Shown one piece after another: positions 9,060 through 56,300 of a DNA stretch of 64,000 nucleotides. Numbering within the stretch: the first letter of the stretch is position 1; each line of letters begins with the position of its first letter. Origin of the DNA: Podarcis cretensis. Lineage: Eukaryota. Location of the stretch: assembly GCA_951804945.1 (NCBI GenBank), contig OX638161.1:48174001-48238000 (forward strand). Reading direction: 5' to 3'. Under the pieces are notes generated by a model. The model was not told the origin of the DNA, did no database searches, and saw only the letters and a list, made by a program, of their open reading frames with translations. A program made the translations under genes and the position numbers.

Positions 9060-9217
9060 CACAGTGAAAGGAAGTGAATCTGAAGCCAGCCAAAAACCTT
9101 CCTATGCCAGCTTGTCTGGACTGGTTCAGCTGCAACCACAAAGAACTAAATGAAGAAGTTTGGAGAAGGAAGATAAATTCAAAATAAATTGTCTTGATTT
9201 CGTTGACACAAATGAGG

Positions 9218-13862: not shown

Positions 13863-15389
13863 CACAGTGAAAGGAAGTGAATCTGAAGCCAGACAAAAAC
13901 CTTCCTTTGCCAGCTGTCTGGACTGGTTAAGCTGCAACCACAAAAAAACTAAATGAAAAATCTGAAGAAAGAAGATAAACTGAAGATAAATTGTCTTGAT
14001 TTTTTTGACACAAATGAGGCACCATGCCTATTGTTCAAAATGGAATGTTCAGAGAAAGCCTAGACTGCATTCAGACAGCACTTTATTCTATTTCCCCAGC
14101 AATGCATTTCATACTAAGAACTACTTCTGATGTGATCTTTTATGCAGTGCAAAATTCAATTCTGGTAATCTAGCAGAATCTTGTTGATGTTCAGTACTCA
14201 TTCCTATATTTATTGCTTCCATGATATGTGTGTTTGCATGATTGCAGCTCCTTTAGCTCAGAATATTGTGGCAAATTTAAGGTATAATTTCCCCAGTGTT
14301 TTAATGGCTTACATGATGTGATGAAATTTGGGGAAGAATTTTCAAATACCATGTTAGCCAGTTTTGGTGGGGATAGAGATGGAATGTTTAAATCCACTTT
14401 ACCACACAGTTTCCCTGTCTCCAACTTTGCAATCCCACCTTTCTGCTCTGTGTGTATATGAAGCAGTGTAGGACTTAATGTTCCTGCCAGACAATCAGTG
14501 TAATGGACACAAAGGGAGAGCCATGTTAATTTGGTTGGAATTAAAAGCAAGCAGCTTTATGACCTGATGACTGAGCACACAGACTTGAGCATAGCTGGAA
14601 TGTTGCAGGGTCATTTCATTATTCCTTTTGCGTGTCGAGGTCCCCAATCCACCCCCCAAAATAACTCACAACAGACACGTAATTTTTTGTTTAAGATTTT
14701 TGGCATGATTTTGGCCACAACTTTATTAAAATACAAACTGTGAGTGGTTGTTTATGTTGGGATTCAGAACTTACAGGGTTAAGCTGTTCTGAGTAGTGCC
14801 TCCCATTCTGACGTGTGGAAGGAGGGAGGAGCTCTACTTTCTGTTCTCTCTTGGTCTCTGAAAGAGACGGACGCCATGAATGCTAGCAGTCCAGGAGAAT
14901 CTGAGAAATGCTGAGCTGTAAATATTTTGCTGCAATAAAGAACTGATAAATTTGGACTCACAAGTGCTTGTTGTGTTTGGATCTAAGCAAGCAGCAACGG
15001 TTTTTGTTCCGCTGTGTTTTTACTCTGCAAGGCGAAACCGGAGAGAAGAAGGTCTGCGCAGCTTGGCTAAGAAGTGTGCCGGACCGCAATAAACTGGGGC
15101 TAATTGGGGCCATAAAGTAATTAGCCAATTAAGATCTTATCACAGGTTATGGGGGGCCTAATTACCGCTTATAAAACTGTTGCTGAAAGTCTGCCGGTGT
15201 ACTTTGAAGTCAGCTTGAACAGCTGGGAAGACGCTACCGAAGCGGAGGTCTGCGTTCTGTGTTTTGCCTGCTGCTAAGAGGCAAGAGTTGCTGAGAGCTG
15301 AGAGCTGGGAAAGCAGCTGAAAAATCGGGTGCCGGAGAGCTGACTGGTTTTACGTGAGTAGCAGCTGGGGCCCCGGGGAAGAGGAGAGA

Positions 15390-15842
15390 ATGGCAGACAG
15401 CCAGGTCCTTGAGGACGTTCCACTTGAAAAGCTCACTTTAAGAAGTTGGGCAACCTGGTCCAGAAGAGTAAGGGGTTGGTTTCTGGTTACTGGGCTTTGG
15501 GATGTAAGCCAGAAAGAGCCACTTCCCCTGAATCCAGGTCCTGAAGGGACACACGTTGCAGGCTTTGAGGCTGCGTTGCCTGAAGATGGCCGGCAGAGAA
15601 TGCAAAGAGAGCTTGCTATGCTGAAAGCATGCGTACACGCATCGCTCTTGCCTAGTTTGGAAGGCGTAAAGTCAGCAAGGGCTGCCTGGGAGGTGCTGAG
15701 AAGTTTGTGTGAAACTGCAGCAGGAGGCCAGGGCCCTGGAGAAGTCATGGAGAGCCTGGAGATGGCTGTAGCCCCAGTCCCTGAGGTGCAAGTCGGGGGG
15801 CTGAGAATTCCAAAGGCAAGTTTCAAAAGTTTTCCACTGTGA
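15390..15842 (+). CDS. gag: copia gag N-terminal region
   Basis: MADSQVLEDVPLEKLTLRSWATWSRRVRGWFLVTGLWDV..SARAAWEVL resembles copia gag; out of frame with the downstream ORF near the G6 run at 15795-15800. Confidence 0.8.
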   Translation: MADSQVLEDVPLEKLTLRSWATWSRRVRGWFLVTGLWDVSQKEPLPLNPGPEGTHVAGFEAALPEDGRQRMQRELAMLKACVHASLLPSLEGVKSARAAWEVLRSLCETAAGGQGPGEVMESLEMAVAPVPEVQVGGLRIPKASFKSFPL

Positions 15843-18091: not shown

Positions 18092-19509
18092 GTTGTTCTG
18101 AGTAGTGCCTCCCATTCTGACGTGTGGAAGGAGGGAGGAGCTCTACTTTCTGTTCTCTCTTGGTCTCTGAAAGAGACGGACGCCATGAATGCTAGCAGTC
18201 CAGGAGAATCTGAGAAATGCTGAGCTGTAAATATTTTGCTGCAATAAAGAACTGATAAATTTGGACTCACAAGTGCTTGTTGTGTTTGGATCTAAGCAAG
18301 CAGCAACGGTTTTTGTTCCGCTGTGTTTTTACTCTGCAAGGCGAAACCGGAGAGAAGAAGGTCTGCGCAGCTTGGCTAAGAAGTGTGCCGGACCGCAATA
18401 AACTGGGGCTAATTGGGGCCATAAAGTAATTAGCCAATTAAGATCTTATCACAGTTTAGACATTGGTTAAGACTATCTGTCCCCCCGCCTGGGGACAGAA
18501 CTGACTTCCGGGCACCACCGAAAGACAGTGCGGGGGAAAGCAAGTCAGGGAAGAATTGGAGCTGAGACACAGACCCTCAACTCTCATCCGCCTGCTCCCA
18601 GAAGGCTTGCCGGCCCTAGTCCCTTTCCTGGGATTGGATGAAAAGATGGCAAGCCCCAGGATTCCTTTAATGGAATTCCCTTTCCGCAGCAACCATGGAG
18701 GGGCAGGCCCAGCCTATCCTAACCCCTCCTCCACCAGATTTATAACCAATGCCTAACCACAACCTTACAAGTTGTGACGATTTGCTACGCAGTAGGCAAA
18801 AAACCACCCAGCCAGCCAATTTGCCAGGTGGAAAAATTCCTACCAAGCCCCTGCTCAAAGGCAGACGACCCCATGACAGGCATAGCAAGGTCAACGCAAC
18901 AACCCCTTATTCTAGGGCGGGTGGGCGGGTGATCTGTTGCACGCAGCAAAAGAGAAAGTACAAGGCTGCGTGCAACATAACTTTTCCCCCAGCAACTCGG
19001 CAATCCAATCAATGCCCCTGGCCATCTTGGAGAACTTCCCCAGCAACAAAGGGGGTGGCTCAGTAGACCCCACGGCAACACGTGCTCTCCCTGAAGGAGA
19101 ACACGCTTTATACTAATATCAAATTTCTATACCACCCCTCATCTGAAAATCATAGGATGGCTCACATTGGCAGTGTGTGGCCCCAGCCAACATGAAGGCT
19201 TGTAAAAATTCCTCTTCCTGCTGCTTTCTGGTTGTGGGAAAGCAAGGGACCCATAAAAGGGTGTGTGTGACCAAGAAGACTTCTTTAAATGATGGACCCA
19301 CTTCCTGCTGGTGGAAGCAGTGCTCTGAGCATATTCTCAGTTTAGATCACCTCTCTTTATCTGATTCCCACCACTAGATGCAAAGTTGATGCAAATTCCT
19401 GTCCAAAAAGCTTTCTATTTAAATAGCTCCACCCACACCAAGTCTTCAGATGCCCAGCTGGACCAAATTCAGCTGTCAATCCAGACGGAGGAGTTTCTCT
19501 CTGCAAACA

Positions 19510-31719: not shown

Positions 31720-31855
31720 NNNNNNNNNNNNNNNNNNNNNNNNNNNNNNNNNNNNNNNNNNNNNNNNNNNNNNNNNNNNNNNNNNNNNNNNNNNNNNNNN
31801 NNNNNNNNNNNNNNNNNNNNNNNNNNNNNNNNNNNNNNNNNNNNNNNNNNNNNNN
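31720..31855. other. Assembly gap (N run)
   Basis: 136 N bases. Confidence 1.
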
Positions 31856-34368: not shown

Positions 34369-34813
34369 ATGACACTTTGGCTTCAGTTTCTTTTTGTTTC
34401 AGCAGTTTTGGGAGGTAATTTTATTCCTTCTTTGAACAAAGATGACTAGTATAATGTAGGGCTTCATATGTAGAAGATCTTTTAAATATGGCTCCCCCCT
34501 TTCTAGGTGTCCAGTCAGCAGTCCAGCTGGTAGAGTCTGGAGGGGATGTCAAAAGGCCTGGAGGGTCCCTCCGCCTCTCCTGTCGAGCTTCTGGATTCAC
34601 CTTCAGCAGCTATGAAATGAACTGGGTGCGACAGGCTCCTGGAAAAGGACTGGAATGGGTTGCAATAATATGGCCTGGTGGTAACCAACAATATTATGCA
34701 GACTCAGTGAAAGGGCGTTTCACCATCTCCAGAGACAACCCTTCAAACATGCTGTATCTGCAAATGAATAGTTTGAAATCAGAGGACACTGCTGTTTATT
34801 ACTGTACAAGAGA
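34369..34813 (+). CDS. IGHV: IGHV segment, family A, intact
   Basis: Leader 34369-34414, V exon 34507-34813 ([24 protein letters not shown]); perfect RSS 34814-34852. Confidence 0.97.
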
Positions 34814-35743
34814 CACAGTGAAAGGAAGTGAATCTGAAGCCAGACAAAAACCTTCCTTTGCTAGTTGTCTGGACTGGTTCAGCTGCAACCACAAAATATT
34901 ATATGAAGAAGTGTGGAGACGAAAGATAAATCGTATTGATTTTGTTGACACAAATGAGGCATGTCTATTGTTCAAAATGGAACACTCAGAGTAAGCCTAG
35001 GCTACATTCAGACACCACTTTATTCTATTTCTCCAGCAATTCATTTCCTGCTAAGTTCCACTTCTTATGTGATCTTTTATACAGTGCAAAATTCAATTCT
35101 GGTAATCAAGGAGAATCTTCTTGTTGTTTAGTACTCATTCCTATATTGATTGCTTCCATGAAATGTCTATTTGCATGTTTGCAACTCTGTTAGCTCAGAA
35201 GATTGTGGCAGATTTGAGCTATAATTTTCCCACTGTATTAATGGATTACATAATGTGATGAAATTTAGGGAAGAATTCTGAAATACCACTTTTTGTTCTT
35301 GATTGAATGATAAAGCAACAGAACCTTGCATGCACTTAAATTGTGGTTTCCAATGTTATCTGATGTTGTATCACACTGGCATGAATGAAATTTAGCATGG
35401 CATGGTTGTTTATTTATTTAAAAAGCTGCAGTCCCAAATGCAGCAGGAATATTAGAAACCAGGAAAAAAGCACCAGTTATCTAATTTGAACTTCCTGTAG
35501 TAGAACATCAGAACAAAAAGAAAATAAATGGGTTTCTGAACAAGAATAAACAAGAGATTTTATTCTTCACTTCTCAGTTATATAAACTTTTCACATATTG
35601 GTTTAGGTTACTTAGGATGTATGAACAAAACAAAATCTATTTGCATATATAGTAACAACCCAAGCGGAAGTCTTGAATAAGCCCCATGATATCCATTCCA
35701 TTAATACCACATTGGGAATATATATAAAAGGGCAGCTGATGCT

Positions 35744-38700
35744 CTATATTTTCCTCTTTATTAGCTGCTCCCTGCTGTTCATGTCAGGCCTCAGCAGAAT
35801 AATGTAGCATTTTGGGGAAAATATACAGCCCAGCAGCCCAGCACTGGAGGCCAATATAGAGAAGATCTCCACAGCCACCATGTATTTCCCCTTGGTGCTC
35901 AGGTAGGTTGGGACAAATGACAACCAGACACTGCAAAACATCAACATGCTGAAGGTAATGAACTTGGCTTCATTGAAAGTGTCTGGCAGTTTCCTTACTA
36001 GAAAAGCCACCGTGAAACTAATGATAGACAACAGTCCCATGTAGCCCAGGACAAGATAAAACATGGTGACAGAACCTTCATTGCATTTGGCTACTATGAT
36101 TTTGGTTAATGATACCATGTCAAAGTCTGGGAATGGGGGAGAGATAGCGAGCCACACTACACAGATACCTGCTTGAATAAGAGAGCAGGAGAAGACAATG
36201 GAGTTGGTCAGTCTTCTACCCACCCACTTCCTCATGTTGGAACCTGGTTTTGTAGCCATGAAAGCGAGAATCACAGTGACAGTTTTGGCCAACACACAGG
36301 AAACAGCGACTGAGAAGATGGTGCCAAAAGCAGATTGACGGAGAAAGCAGGTCGCCTTACTTGGTTGTCCAAGAAACAATAATGAGCAGAGGAAGCAGAG
36401 CAACAGAGAGATGAGCAGGGTATAGGTGACATCCCGGTTGTTGGCTTTGACTATGGGAGTATCTTTGTGTCTAATAAAAATCATAAGCACTAAAGCTGTG
36501 ATCACTGCTAAAAAAGCAGCAACCATAGCAAAGCTGATCCCCAAAGGTTCTTCAAAAGAGAGAAAATTTATAATCTTGGGGAGGCATCTTTCTTGATCTT
36601 TGTTCGGATACTCGTTTTCTGGGCATCTGAAACAGTCATCCATGTCTGATGGGAGAAAAAAAATGTTGCTCACATAACTATGCTTATTTTATTGTTGACT
36701 GAGGTTTTTCTTTTGTCCCAGGGATCTTTGACCTGGCAGTCTCTGACCATTAGTTCCTAGTGTGAGAGCTGGTCTTGAAGAAAGGCATTTTAGTATTATC
36801 TAACTATTCTTCTGCTTATCCTTGTTCACCATCTGCATCTATGTTAATTAACATTTCCAAGTAACAGAGGAAAATACTACTAAAATATCAAACATAAATA
36901 CTATACACACACGCACAAATTTTGCTTATAAAATGTTAGGAAAAAATAGTAGACTGATGTGATGTGGCAAACTGAATTTAAGATTCATTCATCTCTTTTA
37001 AAGGGATTGGAGAGATTTTTTTTTTTTTTTTTTAGACAACACATCTTCATACTGTATAAAGGAAAATACAGGAAAATACAATTTTGAGTCATTTATTATC
37101 CTTGGTGCAACCAAGTTCCCAATTCTTCAGCAAAGGGGTGGTTTACACATGCATTTACCATAGCTTTTAGCATTCCCCCCCCCATCACTTGATGACTCTG
37201 GACTGTGTAAACTAACCTTGACCTATGAAAATCCCAATGTGCATATGTAGTCACATTCCATTAATCTTTTACCTGTAAGATATATTGCATGAAATTTAAT
37301 CTCCATTTACACTGGTCATATTTGCAGCAATACATCACCCACCCTTTCGGTGTGAAATCTTCCCTTCTGCGCACTGAGCACATTCGTAGCAGCAAAATTT
37401 CTCCCCCTCCTTCCTTTTCTTCTGATAGCCAGGGCGGCAGGAGTCACTGCAGACAGAAACGGGAGGTACCTATCAATAAACAGGACAATCAGATAAATTC
37501 AGAATGCTTTTGTTCAATAACTGCTATACAAAGAAACAATTGATCAGTCAGCATAGAATAATGCAAAACATGGCAGATGGCATGAGTTAGCTAGTTCTTT
37601 CCTAATCATGGCAAATGCCATTGGTTGAAGGCAACCTAACAATTAATGAAATGACATTAACTGCTCCACAGGTACTTTATCCAATAGGAACTGCTTTGAC
37701 CAGCTTGTTGGTGACCATAAACAACTTTCTTCAGACTCTCCCACAGCCCAACAAAATTTTATTCTTCATGAGTGCTTCACTTCTGTACAAAATAGTTGTG
37801 AGCAACAGATATATTTTTCACTTAATAAGAGTCATTCAAGGTCAGGTCAAAGTCCCATCTAAACCAGCATCATGTTTGCATGGTAGCCACTTGGATGCCC
37901 ATGGGAAGACCACAAGCAACACCTGAATGCAACAGCACTCTCCTCACTTATGATTAACAGCGGCATAAATCCAGAGACACACTGCTTCTAACACTGTTAG
38001 TAGAACAAAGCCAACATGTTTAGCAGATTGAAAGTCATATCCTCCATGAATCTGTCTAATCCCACTTCAAACTATTTAAATGGGTAGCCATCACTACGTG
38101 CATTATAAATGCACACAATATTCTTAGTGTGGTCATACCATAAATTTGCTAAATGATATCATGCTATTGGCAGTTTCACATTTTATTGATAAAGTGGTAC
38201 CTCGGGTTACATATGCTTCAGGTTACAGACTCCGCTAACCCAGAAATGGTACCTCGGGTTAAGAACTTTGCTTCAGGATGAGAACAGAAATCGTGCTCTG
38301 GCAGCGCGGGCGGCAGTGGGAGGCCCCATTAGCTAAAGTGGTGCTTCAGGTTAAGAACAGTTTCAGGTTAAGAACGGACCTCCGGAATGAATTAAGTACT
38401 TAACCCGAGGTACCACTGTACAGACTGATCTTGGTAGAGCTGTTCACAATCCATTTTCAGTGTTTAACTGTTAAAGCCCTAAATTACTCCCCCCCCCCCC
38501 TTCCAGGTTGCTTAGATAATCATTCTTTGCAGGCCCTTTCCCATGACCCTGTCCAAGCTAATGGAATGAAGCAGAGGAGAGGGCCTACTTGGTGGTGGCA
38601 CCCCACTTATTGATTCTCCTCTCCAAAGAGTTTTGCTTTGCCCAAACAATATTAACAGTAAGCATCTTCTTGAATACCTTATTTTTCTCTCCCTTCTGGT

Positions 38701-41700
38701 GCTTCAGCATTTCCCACCAAGTTTCCTTTGGACAGTTTCATGTTGTCCTTAAACTGTTTATGTGTTCATACAGATTTTAGATGGAGTTTTTGCTGTTGTG
38801 ATTTAATGTGTGGAATTATCGCTTGCATTCTGTATGTTAACATTTTTGTGAACCAGCACTGGAGCTGTTTAGTATACAAATGTGTTATTGGGATAGGTGA
38901 TAATGGGAATGTAAGAGTCGTTGTAGGCTTCACCAAAGGAAGCACACAGCCCCAATATCATCCATTCTGCTGCACAAACAAACACCAATATGCCCAAGAA
39001 TACACAACCTGGTTAAAATTTCTGCTCCACACAATTGAAGATTCATTGATGGTGAATTCTTTCCCCTCAAAGGCATTGGGATTCACTTGTCCCACCTTTA
39101 CTCGAAGAAAGGAGATGTTTGGAAATATGACCATATTGGTTAAATCAAATCCTGCAAGCAATTCCCCTTTATTATTAAAAGTCACTGTTTCCCCAGCAGC
39201 ATTGTTAAATGAAGTGCCTTGAAGAAATTGGTGGAGCTAATTGACAGGGGGAAAGGAGACATTAGTTTAATATAACTTTTGTGCTGGGAAAGGTCTGCCC
39301 ACATAAAATAAATAACGAGACCTTGAAGCTTAGTATGGGTGTGCCACCAAGACCCTGCATAGATCTTGTCCCCATTTCTTCTAGTCTCCTGTCCTTTCAG
39401 GAGAAGCTTTGATGAAGCCATCCTCTGATGTCCAAGATGCCTTAGCAGGTTCACCAAATGTTGTTTTCATTTTTCTTTCCCCTCTACTCACATTCTATCT
39501 GCATGGCATGAAGCTACATACAGATAATGGTCCTCAAATAAGAGTTTTCTCCAAGTTAGTACATCATAGGTGAAAAACGGCTATGTATCCATTCTCACCC
39601 AATGAAGCAAAGCATTCCCAGATGGCTGACATAACAGGTGATCAAGTCTTCCCACACTATTGGGTGGCTTGATGGTTGGAGAGATGTGCAAATCAGCCCC
39701 CAAATTACTCACTGACAGAGCGGGTGAGGCAAGTAACACTATTGCAGTGGTGAAAGACTAGAAATTTGCAGCTCACTTTTCCCATGCTCCACGTGTAGGT
39801 AGAAATGTGAACCCCCATGGCTTTCTCAATCATTAATATGTGCATAATTTCTACAGGTATTCAAGGAGGACACATTTTGATGCTTTTTCTCTATGTATGA
39901 ATGCATTCCTGGCAATGAAGCCATTCTGTGGTGACAACATTACCTGCCAAGGCTGGAGATCTTGAAATTCAGAACTTTTCCTCCCCACCATCACTCTATC
40001 TTTCAATGTAGATGAGTTCCTGGAATGCAAAGCATGTGCCACAGCATAGACAGCATTATAGACACTGTAACTGTGACCTGTCATGTCCATTTCGAAAACA
40101 GGTCCAGGAAGACTCTCCAGCCTCTCCTGTCCAATACATGGTCTATCTACCTCCAGTGTTATGCTGGGATTGGAAAATGTACATCCGAATGCTTGTTCCC
40201 AAAACCCTTGGAGAAAACCATCTCCTTGTGTTCTATAAGGTTTTATGTTGTGAAGATAAGCCTGGAATCCTGGATGTCCACTTGCATGTATAGCAAAAGA
40301 AAAAGCCCCCTGGAATATTTGAAAATTACTACGTGTTATAAAGCCTGTTACTGAAAAATCAATCTGGGCTGTTGTAATCCAGACCTTCCCAACAGATATA
40401 TTTCCTCCATATTCCAGATCTGCTATTGGCACTAAAGTGCTCAGCCACAGAAGGGTCATGCTTTCACCATAGATAATAATTGCTCTAGCTTTTCTATCCA
40501 TGAAAGAATGATAAATGTTTGATGCCATATCGCTCAGAATATCAAGGGAAACGAATCGTCCTTGTTTCTGGAGCCTTTCTGTGAAAGCTGAACATATCCC
40601 GTGCTGAGCAAGCAGTGGCTCCAGGTTCTGCAAGAAATGGTCTCCACTGTCATCAGCAGCAGCTAGGAGCCCAACCCAGATCCATCCAAAATGTTGAAGC
40701 AGCTGGATAATCCCACTGTACTGATGGGTTTCGCTTGGGACCATGTGGTAAAAGGAAGGGGAATTATTTGTGCTACTTTCCTCTGGGGCAAATGAGCCAA
40801 ATGTGAGCTGAAAGAAAATGGACAGATAGTTTAGAGATAGGTTGCAATTTGTGGTGGGCAAAAACCCCTCACTTACCTTTCCAGAATCTTTGCACAGAAA
40901 TGAAAGTGGTGCCAGAGCTGTCCTGGGTGCTTATAGAAGCTTTTATAACTCAGGGATTTAATTGCATGCAAAAGAAGGGGTCCTACTCTTGGAAAAGTTG
41001 GGTCTTGCTTTTTCAATATCCAATAAGGCTTTGTTTTTCTGCAAGTCATTTTCAGCCTCTTCCTGAACCACAAAGGCAGTAACAGGATGACAAGAGGAGA
41101 GCATATCTTCTCCATGAACAGATGTTACCTGTGGAATCTTGTAGAGAGTTAAGATGTTTGCCATGTGGAAAGAAATATCAGAGCTCATTCCCCCAATGAC
41201 AGCTATGAGTTTTTTCTGAGTGCCACATTTGTAGTTGGGGATCAATCTATGTGAATTGAAGAGCTGGTCCAGAGTGGTGCGGTAGGTCATCCTTGCATCA
41301 TAGTAGCTGTCACAGATGTGGAACCCAAGTGTGACATTGGGCAAGATTTTTGGGTTCTTGTTGACCTCATTTACAGCAAATGCCAAGGCCAAGGCATGCT
41401 GGTAAGACTTTGTCACTACACTGCAATGAGAGTTACATTTTCTTTCAGTGGAGAATTCTAAAGCAAAAGAAATTGTTTTGTCACAATACATTTCTGTTCA
41501 GGCTTTCTGTAAAGCAATCTAATTCAGCCATGCAAGACCATCAAGTTCCCACCACCATTTTTGGGGGGAAATTAGCAGAACAAACTCAACAGTGCTTGAG
41601 AACTGTAGAAAAAGAGGGTTGGTTATGGGGAAGATGGAAGAAATGTGGGTGGGGCGGAGGGGATAAAATAAACTAAAACGATGGATCACATTGACATGGA

Positions 41701-42107
41701 TAATGAATGACAATTTGTCTTCCAACACCACAATGCCCCATTTGGGACTGAAGGCCGAGATTTATGAAATGTAAATAACTGAATAGAGATGTGCTGATGT
41801 TGACATATTGCTTATAGGTGTCTTCTGAGGATTCTATTTCTTACAATTTCTAAGCTGTCTTACCTGATATGAGATGGAAGGTATCTTACCTTGGAAGATC
41901 GAAGCCCAAATCATTAGAAGGATGTTGTTCGAAGGACACTTCAGGAAAAAAGAAGATGATCTGAGAAGAAATGGCGCCAATGAGGAGGTCCCCAGGCTCA
42001 TACCATTCATGGGGAACAGGAAGGGGGTCATTTGTGGGACATTTGAGGGTATCTACTTTGCACACCATGTGGGGCAGCAGAAGCAGAAACACCACTAACA
42101 CCACCAT
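35744..42107 (-). CDS. Vmn2r: Vomeronasal type-2 receptor (class C GPCR), six exons, 876 aa, apparently intact
   Basis: Exons 42107-41890, 41420-41129, 40807-39944, 39236-39009, 37469-37343, 36645-35744, all GT-AG, total 2631 nt in frame; signal peptide [26 protein letters not shown], Cys-rich CCYECAQC, 7TM with [31 protein letters not shown]; polyA signal at 35559-35564. Confidence 0.95.
38192..38418. mobile_element. Tc1/mariner-type MITE, copy 2 (V2R intron 4)
   Basis: Same family as 10752-10994, opposite orientation, TA flanks. Confidence 0.88.
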
Positions 42108-42182
42108 CTGAGAGCAATTTTCTCTAGATGAAGATGCTGCTGTGTCTATCTGCAGCCTTATTCCTGACACTACCCTAATAAA

Positions 42183-42546
42183 GGGACGTGGGTGGCGCTG
42201 TGGGTAAAAGCCTCAGCGCCTAGGGCTTGCTGATCGAAAGGTCGGCGGTTCGAATCCCCGCGGCAGGGTACGCTCCCGCTGCTCGGTCCCAGCGCCTGCC
42301 AACCTAGCAGTTCAAAAGCACCCCCGGGTGCAAGTAGATAAATAGGGACCGCTTACTAGCGGGAAGGTAAACGGTGTTTCCGTGTGCGGCTCTGGCTCAC
42401 CAGAGCAGCAATGTCACGCTGGCCACGTGACCCGGCAGTGTCTGCAGACAGCGCTGGCCCCCGGCCTCTTGAGTGAGATGGGCGCACAACCCTAGAGTCT
42501 GTCAAGACTGGCCTGTATGGGCAGGGGTACCTTTACCTTTACCTTT
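42183..42546 (+). mobile_element. Sauria SINE, full length
   Basis: GGGACGTGGGTGGCGCTGTG head, B box GGTTCGAATCCC, (ACCTTT)n tail, 12-nt TSD TACCCTAATAAA. Confidence 0.92.
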
Positions 42547-44559
42547 TACCCTAATAAAACAATGCACATCAGGATATAGCTGACTCTGCCAATATGCCTA
42601 GGGAAGAGAAGAATATCACCAATAAACTTAATATCTATACGCTTGCAAAACAAAAACAAAACAGATGGTACATGTGATAACAGGACTGTGTAATCAAACT
42701 GGTGGAATCCTGGTTTCCACTTGCCCTCAATCCCACCTCTCAATGACAAAATTGGTGGGATTTATTGAGCTACCTCTAGGTTGTTTTTCTTACTCCCTTC
42801 TGGAAAGTTGATGGAGATTTGCCAAGGAAAATGAATGACAGTGAGCCAGATAATTATAGAGGAGGTAATTACCCCTGGCGAGGAGTTTGGTTTCTAAGCG
42901 ATGACATGTTTTTTGCTCTCCCCCCCCCCCCCCCGCGCACCTTGTTTTTTTAGTGCAACAGTAGCTGGGATGGAGGTTCAGGTGGCCACAGAAAAAACAA
43001 CAATATCAGTAGGACAGCTAAGCCCAACCCAAAGGAGAAGACAGAAAGAAGGGTGGAATATTTGGCCTAGAACTGATACAATTTTGAACTCCTTTCTATG
43101 ACAGGAAATGTCAAGTGTCTCTTCCCATGGTTCCTGTCAATAGCCTGACTGATTTGGGTGTTATTTGCTTGTGGATATTGTACATATGAGAGTCACTCTT
43201 TTTTCTTCTTCATATATGTAATCTGGTCTGCTACCTACAATACTGACATGGTCTTTCCACTCAGAAATATTTCAATTATATACCTCTGTGAAGAATTTTG
43301 AGAACTGCATTTTACACAGACACACAAAATATACAACAGAAGACGGACCCTGAGATTTTCCTACAGGACAGAATTGAGGGAACATAGAAAGCTGTCTTAT
43401 TCTGAGTGTTCCATCTAATTCTTATACTGAGTGCTCCATCTAGTTGTCTACATTATCTGGGAAATTTAATTTCCAAGGGTGCCAGACAATCCCACTTTCC
43501 TCATTTTTCTCCTCCGTGAAAGAATGATTGACTCACTCACTTTGAAAGGACCACTCATCCTGGTGGTCTTTTGATTAGATTTTTTGGTCCTCTTTCTGTG
43601 TGGGTGGGGTGATTCTTTGTTCCTTTCTTAATCTCCCCCCACAAAAATTTTTTGGAGTGGTGGCTTGTGGTTTATCATTTGTTAAATAATTGTTTTATAC
43701 TTGTTTATGTCTACCATCTTCATTTGTCACTTTTCATTCTGAAAATTCAATTTTTATATTACAGTACTCTCATTTTACTCAACATCACCATCCTGGCTTG
43801 TCCCCACCCTCCTCCACCAGTCCCTGTCTGCTTGCCCCAATTTTTTTACCTGGCAGGCAGGATGGCAGCCTGTCTGTGCCTGGACTATCAGAAATGTCAC
43901 AGTGGGAGTGCTATCTCCTCTCATGAAATATTTGTGGTACTTGGAGACAGTTCCACCCCTTTTGCCAGTTCACGTGACTGGACTGAGCAGAGTTATTTAA
44001 GTCCCCTGTGTCCAGTCACATCCTTGCCATGTCACTTTTGGGGGACTTACACTGGTCGCAGCTCAGCCAGCTTCTGCTGAGACGAGATGATAAAATTAAA
44101 TCATAATATCTTCATCTGAACTGGATTTGAGGACTTAACATCTCTGAAGATCCACCAGATCCTAACTTGTTAACCCTAGTAGCCTTTGTCACAGGATTGC
44201 GCCCTAAGGAGCTATTTTAACTGAAGACAAAGATTAATGGAATTTGTACTCACTTCAACACAAGAATAACTCTCTGCAAGGTTGTGGGTCCTCCCCTTTG
44301 TATTTTTGTGTTCTGACAATGTCCTTTAGAAGGCGTCCCAAGGGCCCCTAGGAATAATCAGACCTTCCTCTCCAAGGGAAAGTTGACTCTCCATCCTCAG
44401 AGAAGCTGATGCCAAGTCAGAGTCCCCTTCTCCTCCATTGTGGGGTATGGAGATGTGGGATCCTAAACCTTTCCAGTCCCCTAACACCTTTCAAACAACA
44501 ACAGATAGTGATTCTGAACTGGTGGAGCTCAACTCATTTCCTATTGTTTCCATAAGGCA

Positions 44560-44562
<3 letters not shown>

Positions 44563-44600
<38 letters not shown>
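44563..44600. repeat. (TG)n microsatellite
   Basis: Direct reading; other microsatellites: (GATA)n ~963-1008 and ~33430-33498, (CT)n(GT)n ~11133-11200. Confidence 0.95.
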
Positions 44601-44604
<4 letters not shown>

Positions 44605-44773
44605 AAAAAAGGTCAACTCCAACAGCATATGGGTCTTTTGAAGGGACAGGTGAACTCTCCATACCCCAGTCTCATGAGTGCAGCTTAGAATAGATAAATA
44701 CATATATTGTTGTTCTTTTTATCTTTTAAAAACCACTGTCTACTGCCCATATTTTTTTTTAAAGGTTATAAAT

Positions 44774-45289
44774 TACTGCATTTTTCACTCTATAGGACGC
44801 ACCTTTTCCCCTCCAAAAATTAAGGGGAAATGTGTGTGTCCTATGGAGCGAATGCAGGCTCATTGGCTTCAGAGATAGCAACGCAAAGCCTCTGAAGCAC
44901 AGAGGGAGTGCTTCCTCTGCACTCTAGAGGCTTCCCGTTGCTTTCTCTGAAGCCTGGAGAGTGAGAGGGGCCAGTGAGCACTGACCCCTCTCGCTCTCCA
45001 GGCTTCAGGGATAGCCACCTGAAGCCTTTGGAGCGCAGTGGGAACTCGCACTGCACTCCAAAGGCTTCAGGTTCCTTTAACTGAAGCTGGGAGAGCAAGA
45101 CTCTCCCGGCTGCAGCAGAGAGGGAGAGCTGTGCAGCGCCCCTTCAGCGAAGCGGGAGGAGAAATGGAAGGGGCTCCATTTCTCCTGCTGCTTCGCTGAA
45201 GGGGCACTGAACAGAGGGGGGGGGGAGAATTCCCCCCCCCCCTGTTCTCCCCCTCCTATGGTCCGGTGTGTCCTATAGAGCGAATAGTA
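44774..45289. mobile_element. pogo/Tc2-like non-autonomous DNA transposon
   Basis: TACTGCATTTTTCACTCTATAGGACGCACC at left, inverted GGTGTGTCCTATAGAGCGAA at right; internal short repeats. Confidence 0.7.
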
Positions 45290-45440
45290 ATAATCTCCCT
45301 TCTTATTCTCACTGATATATGCAAAGTCACAAGAACTTGGACTTCTTGCTTCAGCCCTTAGCATCACACCTCTCACTTCACACATAATGCCTGGAATGGC
45401 GCATTAAGTCCCTTTAAGAGCCAGACCATCACACCATTAC

Positions 45441-45793
45441 ATGGCCTTTATTGCCAATGTTCACTGCACTAGTGGCTTCATTCTCGTGTATGTATGGCTT
45501 TACATCTTACTCTTGCCCTCATCCAATGTGCTTTTCATGTCATAATTAGAGGCTCTTTTCTATCTCATCTTTCCTGTTCCCATTCCAGGTGCCCTCACAC
45601 AGGTTGTACTGATAGAGTCGGATCTAGTATTGAAGAAACCTGAAGGATCCCATAAACTGACCCGTGCTGTCACAGGACTTGATATTAAATGCTACTATAT
45701 GGACTGCGTCCAGCAAAAACCTGGAAAAAGCTTGGAATGGCCTCTTCACTACTATAGTGTTGGGAGCAAATACTGCTACTCTACAATCCAAGG
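45441..45793 (+). pseudogene. IGHV family-C pseudogene, 3'-truncated
   Basis: V exon from 45589 (QVVLIESDLVLKKPEGSHKLTR..), first Cys to Arg and FR2 Trp to Cys, ends after TIQG with no FR3 or RSS. Confidence 0.85.
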
Positions 45794-46034
45794 GGCTAAA
45801 CTGAGACTGGAGGATCGACAGCTGGTATAAGGACCCCCAAATGTCTGTTCTAGCGGACATGGCAAGACCAGGACAAGATGGGAAGGCGGGAACTAGTCTC
45901 AATCTTTATTCCTTTTGAACCAGTCTGATACATATATTCTTTTTTTATTATTTAACAAAATCTACTGTTCTTAATTTTTTTTTGTTTTTTTTGTAAATTA
46001 CCTATGTTACCCATCAAGTTTGATACCTTTGTGG

Positions 46035-46812: not shown

Positions 46813-47272
46813 ATGCTGTCTTTAATGCCAGTGCTCATTTCCCTGGCTGCTTCTTTCCCATATATGTTGATGTCTTTTTCCTTCCTTATTTCATTCATTG
46901 TGAGTTTCATGTGACAACTGTGGGCTGTTGCTTTTCCTATTTCAGCTCTTTTTCCTGTCTTCCTATTCCAGGCATCTGTACACAAATTGTTCTGACCCAG
47001 TCAGATCCAGTTCTAAAGAAACCTGGAGAATCTAACAAACTCACCTGTCCTGTCACTGGGTTTAATGTTAACAGCTACGCTATGGACTGGTTCCGACAAA
47101 AACCTGGAAAAGGATTGGAATGGCTTGTTCACTACTATAAAGTTGGGAGTGATTATAGATATTCCCCTACAATCCAAGGGCGATTCACAGCCTCAACGGA
47201 CAGCTCCAACTTCTACCTGCAAATGAACAACCTGAAAGCAGAAGATACGGCAGTCTATTACTGTGCGAGAGA
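46813..47272 (+). CDS. IGHV: IGHV segment, family C, open V exon but leader donor GT mutated to AT
   Basis: Leader 46813-46861 followed by ATATGT (paralogs GTATG); V exon 46972-47272; RSS CACACTG 47273-47279, 23 nt, ACAAAAACC. Confidence 0.88.
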
Positions 47273-48547
47273 CACACTGAGTGAGATCCCACTAGACCTC
47301 AGACAAAAACCCTTCACTGCATTACATTTTGTGACAAATAATCAGAGGGTGCAGCAAAGGCCAACAAGCCAGAAATGATCAATGGCCCACCAATTTAATT
47401 TATTGGCCACACTCCAGTCTGCAATGAGGTGTTTTAATATTGTCTGATGCAAAAGAACAGCTCTGAGACAGTGCCCTCCCCACATTTCCCACACCTGTGC
47501 CTTTCTCTGAGAGAGCTTGTCAGCTTCTTTCCAAGACAAAAGATATTTTCCTTTAGCAATGTCTAGGAAGGCAGTTTTTCTATTACGGTTTTTCTCATGA
47601 TCTTTTCTGCTGTTGGAAACTGAACCTACTATTAGGCTGCAGTTGTGGATGTTCTGTTAAGGCCTTATGATGAAGATTTGTAGACCTAGGTAGATTGATT
47701 GAGGGGAGGTAGGACATAAACTAACCCCTACAGATACCAACCAATGAAGATCTCCATTCTGCACAATGTAAAATTGGTCCCATGGTGGGGCAGCTACTGC
47801 CCTTTGCAAATCCTCATCATTCTGTGTCAGACAAACACCTTCTCTACTGTCTTTTCAGCAACTGCTAAAGACATTACTCCTTCATCAAACATTCTAAATT
47901 GAGGTATGTAATCCAACTTGTAAGAACATTGGACATGGATTGATTGGAGGTGTATAGAAGTGCTTTTAGCTGGCTGTCCTGGACAGAAGACACTTGGATG
48001 AATGGGGTCAAAATGGAGTGCATCACCCAAATCCACTCAGCTGGAGAAATGTCATCCTACCAGAGCTGCCGAGGTGCAGCAGGAATCCAGGTGGCTGAAC
48101 TGAGCCTGGAGCATCTAAGGCTGGTATAAGGATCCCCAAATGGCTTTTCTAGGGAAAATGGCAAGATAAGGACATTACTGGAAGGAGGGACCTAGTTTCA
48201 ATTTTTATTCCATTCAAACCAGTCTGATACATACATACATATATATTTATTTTGCAATATCTACTGTTCAATTTTTTAAAATCATTTTGTAGATTACCTG
48301 TGTTACCCTTCTAGTCTGAAACGTTTGTTAGTACGCATTCTTTATAATCTGTGGCATAGATGTTTTAAGTGCACACTTAAAAGCCAGAGATATGATTCCA
48401 TCGTAATATAATCCCTTCTTATATTCGCTGATTTATGCAAAGCTGCAAAAAGGAGTGTCCCCCTTAAGCCTTCAAAGCCTCACACCCCACCCGGACCTCC
48501 TGCAACAGCACATTACGCCTCTTTCTGATCCAGACTATCCCACCATT

Positions 48548-50378: not shown

Positions 50379-53300
50379 TGTCAGGGAACTGACATCGGAG
50401 CCAGAGGTGGAGGCAAGGCTCTCAAGCGATGCTGGAGAGGGGCCCAGCAGGGAGAGAGGGAGCTCAATCAATCAATCAATCTTTATTTACGGCTATTAGC
50501 CCATAAAATATGTACAAACATAAAAAGCACAGAAGCATAAAAACCAATACATCTAACGACAGAAGAGGAACTCCACAATGCAAGGGTGGGACATTGAGCA
50601 GTGACAAATAACAGCTTGGGGCCCGGAAAGATCCAAGGGACGGTTCACAGAAAAAGGAGAACTGGTGATGAGGTCCGTCATGCGCTCTCATCATAACTGT
50701 CCGATTGGTTTTTGTTGTTGTTGTTGTTTTTTGGTGGTTTTTGTGTGTGAGATAACCGCATTCAGGAATCTCGCCACCTGCAGAGTTACAGAGGGATCTG
50801 TATCCTGCAAAAGCAGTGCGGCATGAGACTCAACAGGCCTGCCAACCAAGCGCAGTAAAGCAGGACCCAGGAATTTAGTTCTGGCTATGCTATGTAAGGG
50901 ACAGTTAAACATTATATGTGGAAGAGATTCAACTGTTTTCCTGTCACACTCACATAGCGGAGACACCAAACCCTTGGAAAATCTGTGGCTCAGCAGGTTC
51001 AATGGAAAAACATTGAACCTTGCACGAATAAATGCAAGTCGGTGTGGTACAGATGAAAGTGATGACGTATGATGGAAGGCCAAGTGGTGGGGTTATTCCG
51101 TAATACCTGGGAGAGCAGACACCCCCTCCCCCTGGAGACGTTGTTTTGATTTTCAATGTCTGCTAATCTTTGCTCGATAAGGCTTTTGGCTGAGCGTAGG
51201 TTCATCTTTAAGGAGTCCGCTGGGGAAATTCCGATGCTCAGAAGTTTGGCATGGATTTTTCCTACCCACAGATTAACAAAGTCATCCCGCCAGAGGCACT
51301 GAAAGAGGTAATGGTCGGGAAGCTTATGCCAGCTGGACAGCCAGTAGCCAAAGACTCGCTTCCAGATGACAGTCTCCAATGATGCAATCCTTAACTCCAG
51401 ATGTATGGCTGCATTGCTCACACACATGGGGAGTTTCAGGAGGCGACGGAGAAACTGATTCTGCAATGTCCCCAGCGATGTTAAATTGGACCCTGGGGCC
51501 CAGAGCGGGGCAGCATAACAGAGGGTGGAAACCACTTTTGCGTGGTACACCTTCAATGCAGAAGGGATGTGGGAGGCTCCGTCGACCGCAAAAAAATGGA
51601 GTAGAGTGTAAAGTATTGTTTTCCCTTTGTTCAGTAAATACTGTATCTGTGGCTTCCAGCTTAGGTTGTAGTGAAAAAAGACTCCCAGGTATTTGAATTT
51701 GAAAACCTGTTCTAGTTGGACTCCATCTAACTTCCAGCTGTAAGTTTTCCGAGACCTGGTAAAGACCAGTACTTTAGATTTTCCATAATTAATTGTCAGA
51801 TGGTTGAGTTTGCAATAAGCCGCAAAAATCTTTAGAGCTCTGCATAAACCGACTCTAGAGTAGGAAAGGATCGCTGCATCGTCAGCATATAGAAGCAGAG
51901 GGCAGCGAAAATCAGCTAGGCGGGGGGCATGAATATTGGCTTGAGACTCACTCAAAAAGAGCTTCATGTCGCTAATAAACAAGTTGAAGAGGAGTGGGGC
52001 CAAAATGCAGCCTTGGCGCACTCCTCTATTTATTGGGACCTCATTGGATAGGTTTCCCGCCGGTGTGAGTCTCACTCTAGCTGACGACCCGTGGTGTAAT
52101 TGGGTTATAAGCCATAACAGCCTTCTATCTATGCCCCATCTCTCTAATTTCTTCCATAGACAGTTTCTTGGGATACTGTCGAAGGCGGCCTTTAAGTCTA
52201 TGAAAGCGACACATAGGCGCCCCCGACTCGGGGCAGAATATTTTCTGGCAAGATGATACATAATTACCATATGGTCAGTGGTCGAATAATTGTTCCTAAA
52301 GCCCGCTTGCTCATGGCCAATCAAATTTGAGTCGTATGCCCAATGGGACAGCTTAGCCAGCAAAAATTTTGCATAGATTTTCCCGATGATAGACAAAAGG
52401 CTGATGTTCCGATAGTTCTCTGGGTCAGCAGGGGGGCCCTTTTTATAGACTGGTACGATCACGGCCTCCTTCCATGACCTAGGGATAAGCCCCGTAGAAT
52501 TAATTGCATCAAAGACTTTGGCCAGGATTTCAGCCCAACACCTCGGTTGCGTAACAATAGCCTCAGCAGGGACTAGATCCGGCCCAGGGGCTTTGCCCGT
52601 TTTCAGATCTAGTATCAAGTCCATTATCAGTTCTGGGTCAGTAGAGGGCCACAAAGGTAGATGGTCGGCTCAGAATTCCATGGGTGAGTAGGATTCCTCT
52701 GCCAAAGAGAAATATTTACTCAAGAATTGTTCCCATGTGGGCGCAGGGATAATCGCCAGTGGGTACTTCCTTCCTCTTTTGTTTATCAGAGCCCAAAATT
52801 CCTGTGGTCTGCGGGATCTAGAGGCCGCAATCAAGGCTCGCCAACGCTTTTGGTACCACTCGCGTTTGGCCAACTTTAAAGTCTGTTTGTATGCTCTTTT
52901 GGCTTGTAAATAGGAGGGTGGTAGAGCCTGGGCATTAGAGTTTTTATATTCATTATAGATAGAATGAAGAAGGGATCTTGCTTGTTTGCAAGAGGTGTTA
53001 AACCAAGGGGCCCCAGTACTGCAATGCGCCACTTTCGCCTTTTGGGGAGGTGATGTAAAAAAAGTGGTGAGGTTTGTTATAAGAAGGTTAAAAGGTTTCA
53101 AAACCAAATTGAAATCTTGTAAATCAGTAGTTATTTGAGGTAGATAGGCAATGATTTCCCTATGAAAAAATTCCTGGTATTTTTGGGCCACAGCCTCTGA
53201 CCATTTGATCTCTCTTATTTTGGTCGATGATGAGGTTTCCAGAGGGACTGAGTGTTTATAGTCCTTCTGGCACCGGAACAATGACAAAGTGGTCACTATT

Positions 53301-56300
53301 GGAAGGTGATCACTGAAATGTTGGTTTTCAACTTGGAAGGAAAGAACATTAATGGCCAAATTTGCAGAGATCAGGAAGTAATCGATAACACTGTTAGATG
53401 CTAGTCCCAGGTGAGTGAACTCTCCCGGTATGTCGGGGGGGAAGGTGCCGTTCAAGAAGACTAAATTCAGGCGAATGGCCATTTGGTAAAGGGTCACTCC
53501 TGCTTTGTTTACTCTGTTGTCCTTTGAAGTTCTAATTCTGGCATGTTCCAAGTCAAAGTTGTCCAAGCATGGGGGAGTCCACCATTTGGACTTGGTTAGT
53601 AGGTCCCAATTTGTGGCAATACGGGCATTAAAGTCTCCCCCAATTAAGGAGTACGAGTTAGGGCATTTGGTATGACATGACAATAGGTGATTTTCAAATG
53701 ATTCCCATCTCCAATCAAGATCAGGTGCAGAGCCTTCAGGGGGGAGATAGACATTAGTAATTAGTAATGAGGACTTCCCTTCTGCGATCAGTCCAGATAG
53801 AGCAAAAGGCGGGGAAGCCCATACCAGAGTGAATTTGGCGTGAAGTTGGAGTGAGATCCCGATCAAAAGACCCCCTTTGGGGCGACCACCTTTCAAGGAA
53901 GGGGAGGCCGGAAGTGTTAGAAGATCAAAGCCGTCTATGGTAATCTCTTCCTCATCCCATGTTTCTTGGAATAGAATGATATTAAATGAATTTATGTACT
54001 TCCTGAATTCGGGATCTGATTTTTTGGTTCTCCAACCAGCAATGTTCCAGCTAAGTATTGATAATGTCAGATCCTTGTGCTGTCCCGGTAATTGTCACTT
54101 TGAGTTGTTTAATAGGTTCTTGGAGGTAGAAGGAGGACCCATGAAGAAATCAGTAATTTTAGTTTGTGCGGATAAGGTCTTCTTCTGTGTTGATCGAATC
54201 AATGATTTGGTAACATTAACAGGCAGGGAGGGCTTTGCTGGGGTGGAAGAATTAGGCAAAGTTGGTGAGGTCGGATGCTGTTCATTGAAGTGAGTAGTAG
54301 TAGGTCTTTGATGGGCTATACTAGTAGATCCGTCAGAGTTATCAGTCTTAACCAGGGTAGCGCTAAGAGGTGTTCCAGCCATCACTTGTAGTTGCTGCGC
54401 AGGTGGGAAAGAATTATCACGCAGATGTATAGTAGGACGTGAACGTGGGGGTGGTGCATGCATAATCATTTCCTGGTGATCTTCAGACAGGGTAGATTCT
54501 AGCTCTGGCATTGAAGCAAAGGATTCATCAACTTCCATATTTTGATTGGGCATAAGATCTGAGACGGGAGTGTTGAGTTTATCGACTTCCTCCACGGTAG
54601 AATGGTGCTGTTGGTCAACAGGTGACTGCTGATTCAGATCAGTAGGGGGTAACAAAGTAGCAGGTTGAAAGCTTATCAAGGCATTTGTGGGGCGTGGAGC
54701 GCCTGCTCTCCTCTCTCGTCGGCATTGAGGGGTCCCCTTGCAATAGGAGTCTTTGTTTGAGTAGATCCAATCTGTCGAGAATAGCCTGCTGTTCTTCTGA
54801 AGGGAGTTTTCCATAAGAGGAGATAAGATTTCTCTCTTCAGGGATATTCCAATCTCGGCATGCAATTGGATCATTCCTCAGCGTAACTGGATGGGCACTT
54901 GGGATCGCAGGTGGAACAGGGGGTACCCGGCTAGGTGTTTTTTCCTTTATTATAGGAACAGAAGGAGGTAACGAGCATTCATTGCCGGTTAAGATGTTAG
55001 CAAAAAGAGGTTTGACACTTGTGTCCTTAAAGACTCTTGTTGTTACAATCTCCCAGACTGCCAGCCGGTCTTTTTGTCTTGTAAGAAGATGTGGGATCCT
55101 TGCAGACTGGAAGGAAAGCATAAATTTCCTTGGCCAGGGCGTGGCATTTAGGGGTACTACAGATATAAGATCTATCTGGAAAAAAGGGATATTTAGAAAA
55201 TCACGTAGGTACCCTTTAGCCATCCTCAGGTAATTCCACCTAAGTCTGGGGGCGTCACGGGAAAAAATGGATAGACATATTTTATTAGGTTGAAAAATCA
55301 AGGAATGCTTGTTCCTTTGGGGCAGTGGCAGTCTGCTTCTAGAACCCTTAAGGTGAGAATTCTGGTCATGTTGTCTCTTTAAGGCACTTACAAGCTGCAC
55401 AGGAGATTGATGCAAATTAGATAGCTCAGTTGAGGAAGATGGATGAGTCAGAAGGGCTTGTGAAAGTTTATTCAAAGATAAAGAAATCCCTTCCAGTTTC
55501 TTGAAAATGAAGCTTAAAGTCCTGATTACTAGTTGTATTTGGTCAGGTACTGATTCATGGGCAGTTTGCCCTGGTGCGTCCTGTTTTAGTGACGGTGAAG
55601 GTGTAATTAAGGTGTCAGGGAGGAGGGCTTCCCTACGGCTTCCTTCCCCCCCTGGATCAACTGGCTTTTCCAGCTCCCCTTGACCATACAGAGGCCAAAA
55701 GCGGTTGTATGTTTCGACCGCAGAAACAATTACTTGTTCTGTTTGGCTGTTATTGTTAGTAGGTGGTGAGGGAGATTCAAGCTTTGGCTGCTTTACTCTT
55801 GGAGGTGAACAACCTTTCTCAGCAGATCTTGGTCGCTTGCCATGACCCATTTGTCACTGTCTCACTGACTACGGAGGTTAAAAGTAGAGATAAACGGAGT
55901 TAAAAAGATAACTTATCTTCTGTGGACACAACTCCTCTGCCACTCCTCCTCCACTGCTCCGCATAACCCAGTCTTCAAGGCGGCGTTTCTAATCAGCGGC
56001 AGGCTTTCTCAGCAGAAGGTTTGAATATCCTTGTTAATACGTATATTGGTCACGACTGGCCAACAGTAGAGATAAAACGGTTAAAACTTCTAACAGCGGT
56101 AAAATAATTAAAGTCTAATAAAAACAGCTATAAAAACGGCTATAAAAGGCTGTAAAAGGCTATAAAAGGTTTGTTATCCAGGAGGGTTCACGGAGGAGAA
56201 GTTGTTACAGCCGCCATCTTGGCACCTGTCTCATCGGCTGGGGAAGGAAATCAGCGTAACACCAGGGATAGAGGAGGGCAGATGGGAGAATCGGCGAGGG

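What the first reader, a model, noticed from the sequence alone, without database searches (positions are those of the whole stretch)
35290..45290. Intact vomeronasal V2R gene embedded antisense inside the IGHV array at the family boundary
Seen: a complete 6-exon, 876-aa V2R in a ~10-kb block with VH-A/B genes on the left and VH-C genes on the right; the flank of the last VH-A unit breaks off at ~35290. Established: deletional V(D)J joining removes everything between the used V and DJ, and V2Rs are chemosensory class C GPCRs expanded in squamates. Inference: B cells using any left-hand VH excise this receptor gene. It shares chromatin with a locus under allelic exclusion and antisense germline transcription, so it may be expressed in lymphocytes or may have hitch-hiked in VH duplications. 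Its position may also have limited homogenisation between the two VH blocks.
Basis: partly seen in the sequence, partly recalled or inferred. Interest (0 to 1): 0.75.

Follow-up and report, generated by a model that had tools for sequence, protein, structure and literature searches.

The report
Tongue-smell gene inside lizard antibody locus
An intact vomeronasal (tongue-smell) receptor gene sits backwards between antibody heavy-chain V segments in a wall lizard, and related receptors appear to lie beside V segments in many lizards and snakes, so it is likely an old passenger that B cells would cut out without harm rather than an immune gene.

Summary
An intact six-exon, 876-aa V2R lies on the minus strand between 12 VH-A/B segments (left) and 5 VH-C segments (right). 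A short-read contig bridges the left junction. The right side (44554-45254, a CA run plus a MITE) is not bridged, and a 136-N gap cuts off 10 of the 12 left-hand VH.

The gene is old. One orthologue each turned up in two Podarcis species, Lacerta, Zootoca (93-97%) and the amphisbaenian Rhineura (80%). V2R and VH models share a contig in 16 of 18 squamate assemblies where both appeared. In tiger rattlesnake the accession order is clan-III VH, V2R, VH-C on one 800-kb scaffold, as here, though orthology with that gene is unsettled.

Best reading: the squamate IGHV array is intermingled with V2R genes, and this gene is a passenger, like the odorant receptors among mammalian TRAV segments. Deletion in B cells is inferred, because no D, J or C lies in the window. 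Hitch-hiking and a homogenisation barrier are not supported; lymphocyte expression is untested. The scan noted two more V2Rs about 200 kb further along this genome's array (unchecked). My searches found no paper on this.

The parts
34369..34852 (+). Last VH-A (clan-III-type) segment: leader, 92-nt intron, open V exon, perfect 23-RSS
   Evidence: V-set hit
34853..35288 (+). VH-A downstream flank; homology to sister units (85-88%) ends at 35288
   Evidence: bridged by contig 35019-35815 of run X1
35289..35743 (-). Predicted V2R 3' untranslated region, polyA signals at 35564 and 35418; no other match in the window
35744..36645 (-). V2R exon 6: end of cysteine-rich domain, 7TM domain, stop
   Evidence: 7tm_3, E 7.5e-85
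37343..37469 (-). V2R exon 5: nine-cysteine domain
   Evidence: NCD3G, E 4.1e-15
39009..39236 (-). V2R exon 4
39944..40807 (-). V2R exon 3: main Venus-flytrap part
   Evidence: (ANF_receptor)
41129..41420 (-). V2R exon 2 (292 nt)
41890..42107 (-). V2R exon 1: start codon, hydrophobic signal-like N-terminus
   Evidence: same N-terminus in XP_077773899
42180..42540 (.). High-copy SINE-like insertion just upstream of exon 1; absent from a contig of run X3 (record 12 joins 42170 to 42547)
44554..44613 (.). CA microsatellite at which short-read contigs stop
44780..45284 (.). High-copy palindromic MITE with 20-nt terminal inverted arms, at the V2R/VH-C boundary
45284..45794 (+). Truncated, divergent VH-C pseudogene (promoter, leader, first 66 codons of V; no RSS)
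46983..47311 (+). First full-length VH-C V exon with near-consensus 23-RSS
31720..31855 (.). Assembly gap (136 N) separating 10 of 12 left-hand VH from the V2R

Best explanation
An intact six-exon V2R sits antisense between VH segments; it is likely an ordinary vomeronasal receptor and an old passenger of a squamate region where IGHV segments and V2R genes are intermingled, and B cells would likely delete it without harm when they use a left-hand VH. Shown: gene structure, position, lacertoid orthologues, the left junction, and V2R and VH models on shared contigs across squamates. Inferred: close physical adjacency in other species (from accession order), vomeronasal expression (from the family), D-J on the right and hence deletion (from RSS direction and the usual IGH layout), and harmlessness (the loss is somatic and confined to B cells). 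Both families grow by tandem duplication; local duplications and inversions would have left single V2R genes stranded among VH units, and selection in the nose would keep them intact.
For: Gene intact. Orthologues: P. raffonei 96.9%, P. muralis 95.8%, Zootoca 94.3%, L. agilis 92.8%, Rhineura 79.7% over about 685 aa; next paralogue 70.6%; clade support 100/99. Left junction bridged by an X1 contig, 270 nt on the VH side, 1 mismatch. Shared contig for V2R and VH models in 16 of 18 squamate assemblies where both were listed with a contig length, including a 799,607-bp C. tigris scaffold and a 342,970-bp Komodo scaffold. Accessions or locus tags within 32 of each other, or one fused model, in 8 of 12 species where both were read. 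C. tigris order: clan-III VH XP_039189257/261/265/268, V2R 274, VH-C 280; the window's VH-C group with that domain (86). Several V2R lineages neighbour VH: a P. raffonei model fuses a VH to another V2R, and Komodo, Phrynocephalus and Naja neighbours are paralogues. A Tiliqua model fuses an odorant receptor to VH. Precedents: ORs among TRAV (PMC4574546), PRAME in IGLV (PMC9282919).
Against: Right side 44554-45254 has no listed bridging contig in 8 of 8 runs (tables cut). X1 may be the source sample. That accession order follows position is recalled, not tested; 4 of 12 species had distant numbers (L. agilis 1501, Rhineura 907, Pituophis 354, Zootoca another series). Sharing a 50-170 Mb chromosome is weak when V2Rs number in the hundreds. 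Orthology with the rattlesnake gene is unsettled: the flytrap part groups it with the window's clade and anguimorph genes (93/96), the CRD+7TM part puts it with a P. muralis paralogue (96/91). The gene is at the slow end of 5 lacertid V2R comparisons, which a special role could also explain. No expression data.
Confidence: 0.7

Rival explanations
1. The V2R is between VH segments but is not deleted as proposed: D-J-C lie to the left (inversional joining), this VH block is a separate locus, or the unbridged right side or the N gap hides a mis-join.
For: No D, J or C in the window. 136-N gap. No listed contig across 44554-45254 in 8 runs. C. tigris VH models lie on two scaffolds. Assembly errors in IGH are reported for axolotl (PMC9911811, passages).
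Against: All 17 VH point the same way. Left junction bridged. The MITE has matching terminal arms and abuts the VH-C pseudogene in organisms A and D. A 13-nt inverted match spans the CA run (3 of 2000 shuffles, post hoc). The same VH, V2R, VH-C order appears in C. tigris accessions.
Confidence: 0.13
2. The position is functional: the V2R is transcribed in B-cell precursors, or its transcription supplies antisense read-through over the neighbouring VH, or receptor choice and allelic exclusion share chromatin, and this is why V2R-IGHV intermingling has lasted across squamates.
For: Stop codon 892 nt from the RSS of an intact VH, tail to tail. Apparent long persistence of the arrangement. Slow evolution and one copy per species found. 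Two exact octamers lie between 35169 and 35646.
Against: About 3 octamers are expected by chance in the window and 5 lie outside VH-B promoters; the 35169 site is not kept in 3 of 3 sister flanks. PolyA signals at 35564 and 35418 would end the transcript before the VH flank. Several unrelated V2R lineages and an OR neighbour VH, as expected of passengers. Snake V2Rs are expressed in vomeronasal neurons (PMC3590772, passages).
Confidence: 0.09
3. A recent, transposon-aided insertion of a 10-kb V2R block into the VH array, or a copy that hitch-hiked in VH duplications.
For: Sharp loss of VH-A flank homology at 35288 and a MITE at the right edge.
Against: The 35288 break is the edge of a module that also starts at 32937 behind another flank. 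The block is in none of the duplicated VH units. Orthologues reach to Rhineura, on contigs that also carry VH models. The neighbouring VH-C pseudogene is only about 70% identical to its intact relatives, so the boundary is old.
Confidence: 0.04
4. The V2R acts as a spacer that kept VH-A/B and VH-C blocks from homogenising.
For: In the window all VH-C lie right and all VH-A/B left of it; the same split is suggested in C. tigris.
Against: VH-A and VH-B alternate and stay distinct with no V2R between them. VH-C hits reach 79-86% in snakes, 77% in Komodo and 61-73% in turtles, so the family predates this locus layout. 8 public models join VH-C with another family, though an antisense V2R inside those models' introns cannot be excluded.
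Confidence: 0.04

Closest known systems
Odorant receptor genes among mammalian TRAV segments (human OR10G2, OR4E2; mouse Olfr1507-1509; PMC4574546, passages seen)
   Same: Intact chemoreceptor genes interspersed among V segments of an antigen-receptor locus, in conserved synteny across species.
   Different: Those are single-exon class A receptors at the distal edge of TRA/TRD, behind one or two V segments. Here a six-exon class C receptor lies inside IGHV with at least 12 VH on its left and an intact VH under 1 kb from its stop codon.
PRAME, ZNF280A/B, GGTLC2 inside human IGLV (PMC9282919, passages covering most of this short letter; lead from note e1-9347008)
   Same: Non-Ig genes between V segments, deleted whenever a more distal V is used.
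   Different: Light-chain locus; deletion is documented there and only inferred here; those genes are not chemoreceptors.
OTUB, MMP11, SMARCB1 splitting axolotl IGLV (PMC9911811, passages)
   Same: Non-Ig genes between V clusters in an ectotherm, predicted to be deleted by distal V use.
   Different: Not syntenic in Xenopus and possibly an assembly effect; the V2R-VH neighbourhood recurs in many squamate assemblies.
Squamate non-C V2R expansion ('V2R 26-like'; PMC3590772 passages; PMC12400810 section 6 and passages; 10.1101/551978 passages)
   Same: Six-exon layout, flytrap + nine-cysteine + 7TM domains, 50-71% identity to squamate paralogues.
   Different: None of the passages searched links V2R arrays to immunoglobulin genes ('immunoglobulin' 0 hits in PMC12400810 text and supplement and in the Komodo preprint). 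This gene is a lone copy in 64 kb, not in a tandem V2R run.
Adam6 in mouse and human IGH (recalled, not read; search gave no paper on it)
   Same: A non-immune gene inside IGH that rearrangement removes while it works in another tissue.
   Different: It lies between V and D rather than among V segments, and is a sperm protease.

Membership tests
V2R (class C GPCR) | Venus-flytrap, nine-cysteine and 7TM domains in order | tested here: met
   Pfam ANF_receptor, NCD3G, 7tm_3 on window exons
V2R (class C GPCR) | Six coding exons, open frame, canonical splice sites | tested here: met
   six exons typical of V2Rs per PMC12400810 Fig. 1 legend
V2R (class C GPCR) | Closer to named V2Rs than to CaSR, mGluR or T1R | tested here: met
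   V2R-named squamate proteins fill the listing; blastp bits 899-1378 for the top 45; the orthologue's best solved relative is CaSR at 508 bits
V2R (class C GPCR) | Expression in vomeronasal neurons | not testable with these tools
   no RNA holder listed
IGHV array | Leader exon, V exon with both cysteines and WxxQ motif, 23-spacer RSS | tested here: met
   16 of 17 V exons free of stops; heptamer and nonamer both exact in 7 of 17
IGHV array | Linked to D, J and C segments in the same orientation | not testable with these tools
   none in the window; no whole genome held
Passenger gene deleted by V(D)J joining (PRAME type) | Lies between same-strand V segments with RSS pointing across it | tested here: met
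   VH 34803 with perfect RSS on the same gap-free stretch; left junction bridged
Passenger gene deleted by V(D)J joining (PRAME type) | Absent from rearranged alleles in B cells | not testable with these tools
   needs B-cell DNA
One orthogroup fixed at the VH/VH-C boundary from lacertids to snakes | Window gene and rattlesnake XP_039189274 form one clade | tested here: inconclusive
   86/89 whole, 93/96 flytrap part together with anguimorph genes, contradicted by CRD+7TM
One orthogroup fixed at the VH/VH-C boundary from lacertids to snakes | Same flanking VH families on coordinates | tested here: inconclusive
   accession order only; VH-C grouping 86 on 100 columns

The most novel reading that the evidence does not exclude
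One slowly evolving V2R lineage has stayed at the clan-III VH / VH-C boundary of the squamate IGH locus since before lacertids and snakes split, because the two stochastic, monoallelic receptor systems share regulation, or because the receptor is expressed in B-cell precursors and switched off for good by V(D)J deletion.
Probability: 0.08. Interest if true: 0.85.

Novelty: new variant of a known kind. Interest (0 to 1): 0.45.

Why it matters
If the squamate IGHV array is threaded through V2R genes across lizards and snakes, it gives a natural test of an old question: whether chemoreceptor genes linked to antigen-receptor loci are there by accident or share mechanisms of single-allele choice. 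It predicts a measurable somatic loss of smell genes in reptile B cells. It also explains fused VH-V2R and OR-VH gene models in RefSeq, and warns that IGH span and V2R counts in squamates are annotated across each other. As a passenger, it is a synteny fact of moderate interest, not a new mechanism.

Tried and rejected
Exon 2 acceptor at 41457: out of frame, rejected; 41441 is in frame but 41420 matches the 876-aa RefSeq orthologue. Expression: no RNA holder listed; no evidence either way. Right junction: two read layings gave no listed bridging contig; 44614-44765 had next to no cover in 4 of 4 runs, and most of 43150-44560 had none in organisms D and E; the tool says such holes prove nothing. 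An organism C contig reaches 30 nt left of 35288, one short of the 31-nt rule, so it is not counted. Selection: no orthologue DNA, so no dN/dS. Contig differences in organism C were 9 of 959 in coding-rich and 52 of 3019 in intron-rich pieces (p 0.10); 5 of the 8 coding differences shown were silent (the table was cut); neither is conclusive. Octamers near the V2R 3' end: within chance. Trees: 118 of 137 blastp hits-plus-query rows with 600 or more aligned residues were used, then 46 and 35 hand-picked rows; candidates were chosen by likeness to exon 3, so other V2R lineages are unsampled. Rattlesnake supplement: gene ids only in the passages seen, no link to the accession. PMC9248892 has no reptile terms; PMC13320880 has no 'vomeronasal' or 'V2R'; PMC12860763, PMC12529555 and 10.1101/2022.07.13.499775 (passages) gave nothing on the linkage. 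No whole genome is held, so D-J-C could not be placed.
Full report
1. The gene. The six exons named by position in 'parts' join into 2631 nt and 876 residues with no internal stop and GT-AG at all five introns. Pfam gives the class C receptor order: flytrap, nine-cysteine, 7TM. A protein search with exon 3 returned squamate V2Rs, best a Podarcis raffonei model at 95%. Its cluster holds models from P. muralis (876 aa, the same length), Lacerta agilis and Zootoca vivipara. The window therefore comes from a Podarcis-type lacertid. No second V2R piece lies in the 64 kb. In the P. muralis orthologue aligned to CaSR, S147 is kept but S170 and Y218 are not; that these residues bind amino acids is recalled, so the ligand is probably not a free amino acid.

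2. The VH array. Seventeen full-length V exons lie on the plus strand with RSS pointing right: 8 VH-A and 4 VH-B on the left, 5 VH-C on the right, plus truncated pieces. VH 34803 has a leader, a 92-nt intron, an open V exon and an exact RSS; the V2R stop codon is 892 nt beyond it, tail to tail. There is no D, J or C, and no genome is held.

3. Junctions. Left: VH-A flank homology ends at 35288. A contig of run X1 covers 35019-35815 with one mismatch, from VH flank into the last V2R codons; it is 1 listed bridge among 4 runs, from a cut table, and X1 may be the source sample. In three sister units the flank runs on into a ~270-nt module. The same module starts at 32937 behind an unrelated flank. 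So 35288 is that module's edge, and the V2R-adjacent state may be the older one. Right: contigs run from exon 1 to 44553 and from 45255 through a truncated VH-C pseudogene, but none listed in 8 runs crosses the CA run and the MITE between them. The MITE has matching terminal arms, and a 13-nt inverted match spans the CA run (3 of 2000 shuffles, noticed after the fact). These are hints only.

4. Age. Identity over about 685 residues is 96.9% (P. raffonei), 95.8% (P. muralis), 94.3% (Zootoca), 92.8% (L. agilis) and 79.7% (Rhineura); the next paralogue is 70.6%. These form one clade, 100/99, with one gene found per species. Window-to-Lacerta and window-to-Zootoca distances (0.07-0.08) are at the slow end of four other lacertid pairs (0.09-0.24). 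A conserved colubroid clade and an anguimorph clade join it at 86/89 and 93/96 on the flytrap part. The CRD+7TM part instead places the colubroid clade with a P. muralis paralogue, 96/91. Orthology beyond lacertoids is unsettled.

5. Synteny. Pantherophis and Sphaerodactylus differ, with VH on small scaffolds. Two shared contigs are small: 799,607 bp (C. tigris) and 342,970 bp (Komodo). Identifier distances between a V2R and a VH model were 2 (Hemicordylus), 2 (Phrynocephalus tags), 3 (Ahaetulla; a second VH model 1590 away), 5 (Naja tags), 6 on each side (C. tigris), 7 (Sceloporus), 32 (Elgaria) and one fused model (P. raffonei), against 354, 907, 1501 and another series in four species. In C. 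tigris four clan-III models precede the V2R and a VH-C model follows it, and the window's VH-C group with that domain (86; 100 columns). That identifiers follow position is recalled; LOC and XP numbers rise together in 3 of 3 C. tigris models with both. The neighbours of VH belong to several V2R lineages, and one Tiliqua model fuses an odorant receptor to two VH. An unchecked note of this scan reports two more intact V2Rs about 200 kb to the right in the same array.

6. Mechanism. The simplest account is a shared neighbourhood of two duplicating families, with V2Rs stranded among VH units and kept intact by their use in the vomeronasal organ. If D-J lie to the right, as the RSS direction and the usual layout imply, joining any left-hand VH removes this gene from that allele. 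That would be a somatic loss in a cell that is not known to need it. Hitch-hiking fails because the block is in no duplicated unit. A homogenisation barrier is not needed, because VH families stay distinct without one and VH-C is shared with snakes, monitors and turtles. Lymphocyte expression is untested.

7. What is known. Chemoreceptor and other non-immune genes inside V arrays are known: ORs among TRAV (PMC4574546, passages), PRAME and neighbours in IGLV (PMC9282919, passages), three genes in axolotl IGLV (PMC9911811, passages). I found no paper on V2Rs inside squamate IGH. Searches: 0 papers; 3 and 1, unrelated by listing; the one checked by passages; listings; selected papers checked by passages. 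The library lacks most subscription journals, where reptile immunoglobulin locus papers largely appeared, and bioRxiv supplements (Komodo V2R cluster table) were closed, so absence from print is not established.

8. Verdict. Real and probably old; a new variant of a known kind; interest 0.45. The squamate-wide intermingling is the part worth following, and coordinates in public assemblies can settle most of it.

Noticed in passing
window: VH promoters (e.g. about 34243 for VH-A; about 48434 for VH-C; 11403 for VH-B): Family-specific octamers: a one-letter variant (T at position 4) 126-132 nt upstream in 8 of 8 VH-A, another variant (G at position 8) in 5 of 5 VH-C, and the exact octamer at three VH-B promoters.
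   Followed up: partly
P0079 (XP_053216440), P0277 (Tiliqua), P0229 (Pelobates): Public gene models that fuse VH domains to a V2R or to an odorant receptor; likely annotation artefacts that mark physical adjacency.
   Followed up: partly
P0143, P0173 (Naja, 154.6 Mb); P0182, P0211 (Thamnophis, 145.1 Mb); P0270, P0286 (Ahaetulla, 151.1 Mb): Snake VH models lie on 145-155 Mb chromosomes. Rattlesnake V2R arrays lie on Z (PMC12400810). IGH may be Z-linked in colubroid snakes; the chromosome names were not checked.
   Followed up: no
window 1037-4491 and 5772-9217: Recent tandem duplication (94.8% over 3.5 kb) carrying a truncated VH-B and an intact VH-A.
   Followed up: no
window about 15000-18500: LTR-retroelement-like insertion with a 768-codon frame holding integrase core and SH3 domains.
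   Followed up: no
window 51002-55853 (minus): LINE-1-like element with endonuclease and reverse-transcriptase frames, ORF2 split in two, inside the VH-C block.
   Followed up: no
window 43150-44560: Region upstream of the V2R covered in organisms A and G but almost uncovered in D and E; may be a polymorphic insertion in the promoter region, or a filter effect.
   Followed up: no
P0024, P0135, P0015, P0132, P0020, P0130, P0131: A colubroid V2R clade with one gene found per species and 85-92% identity between families, unusually stable for this family; the C. tigris and Ahaetulla members have VH models at nearby accession numbers.
   Followed up: partly
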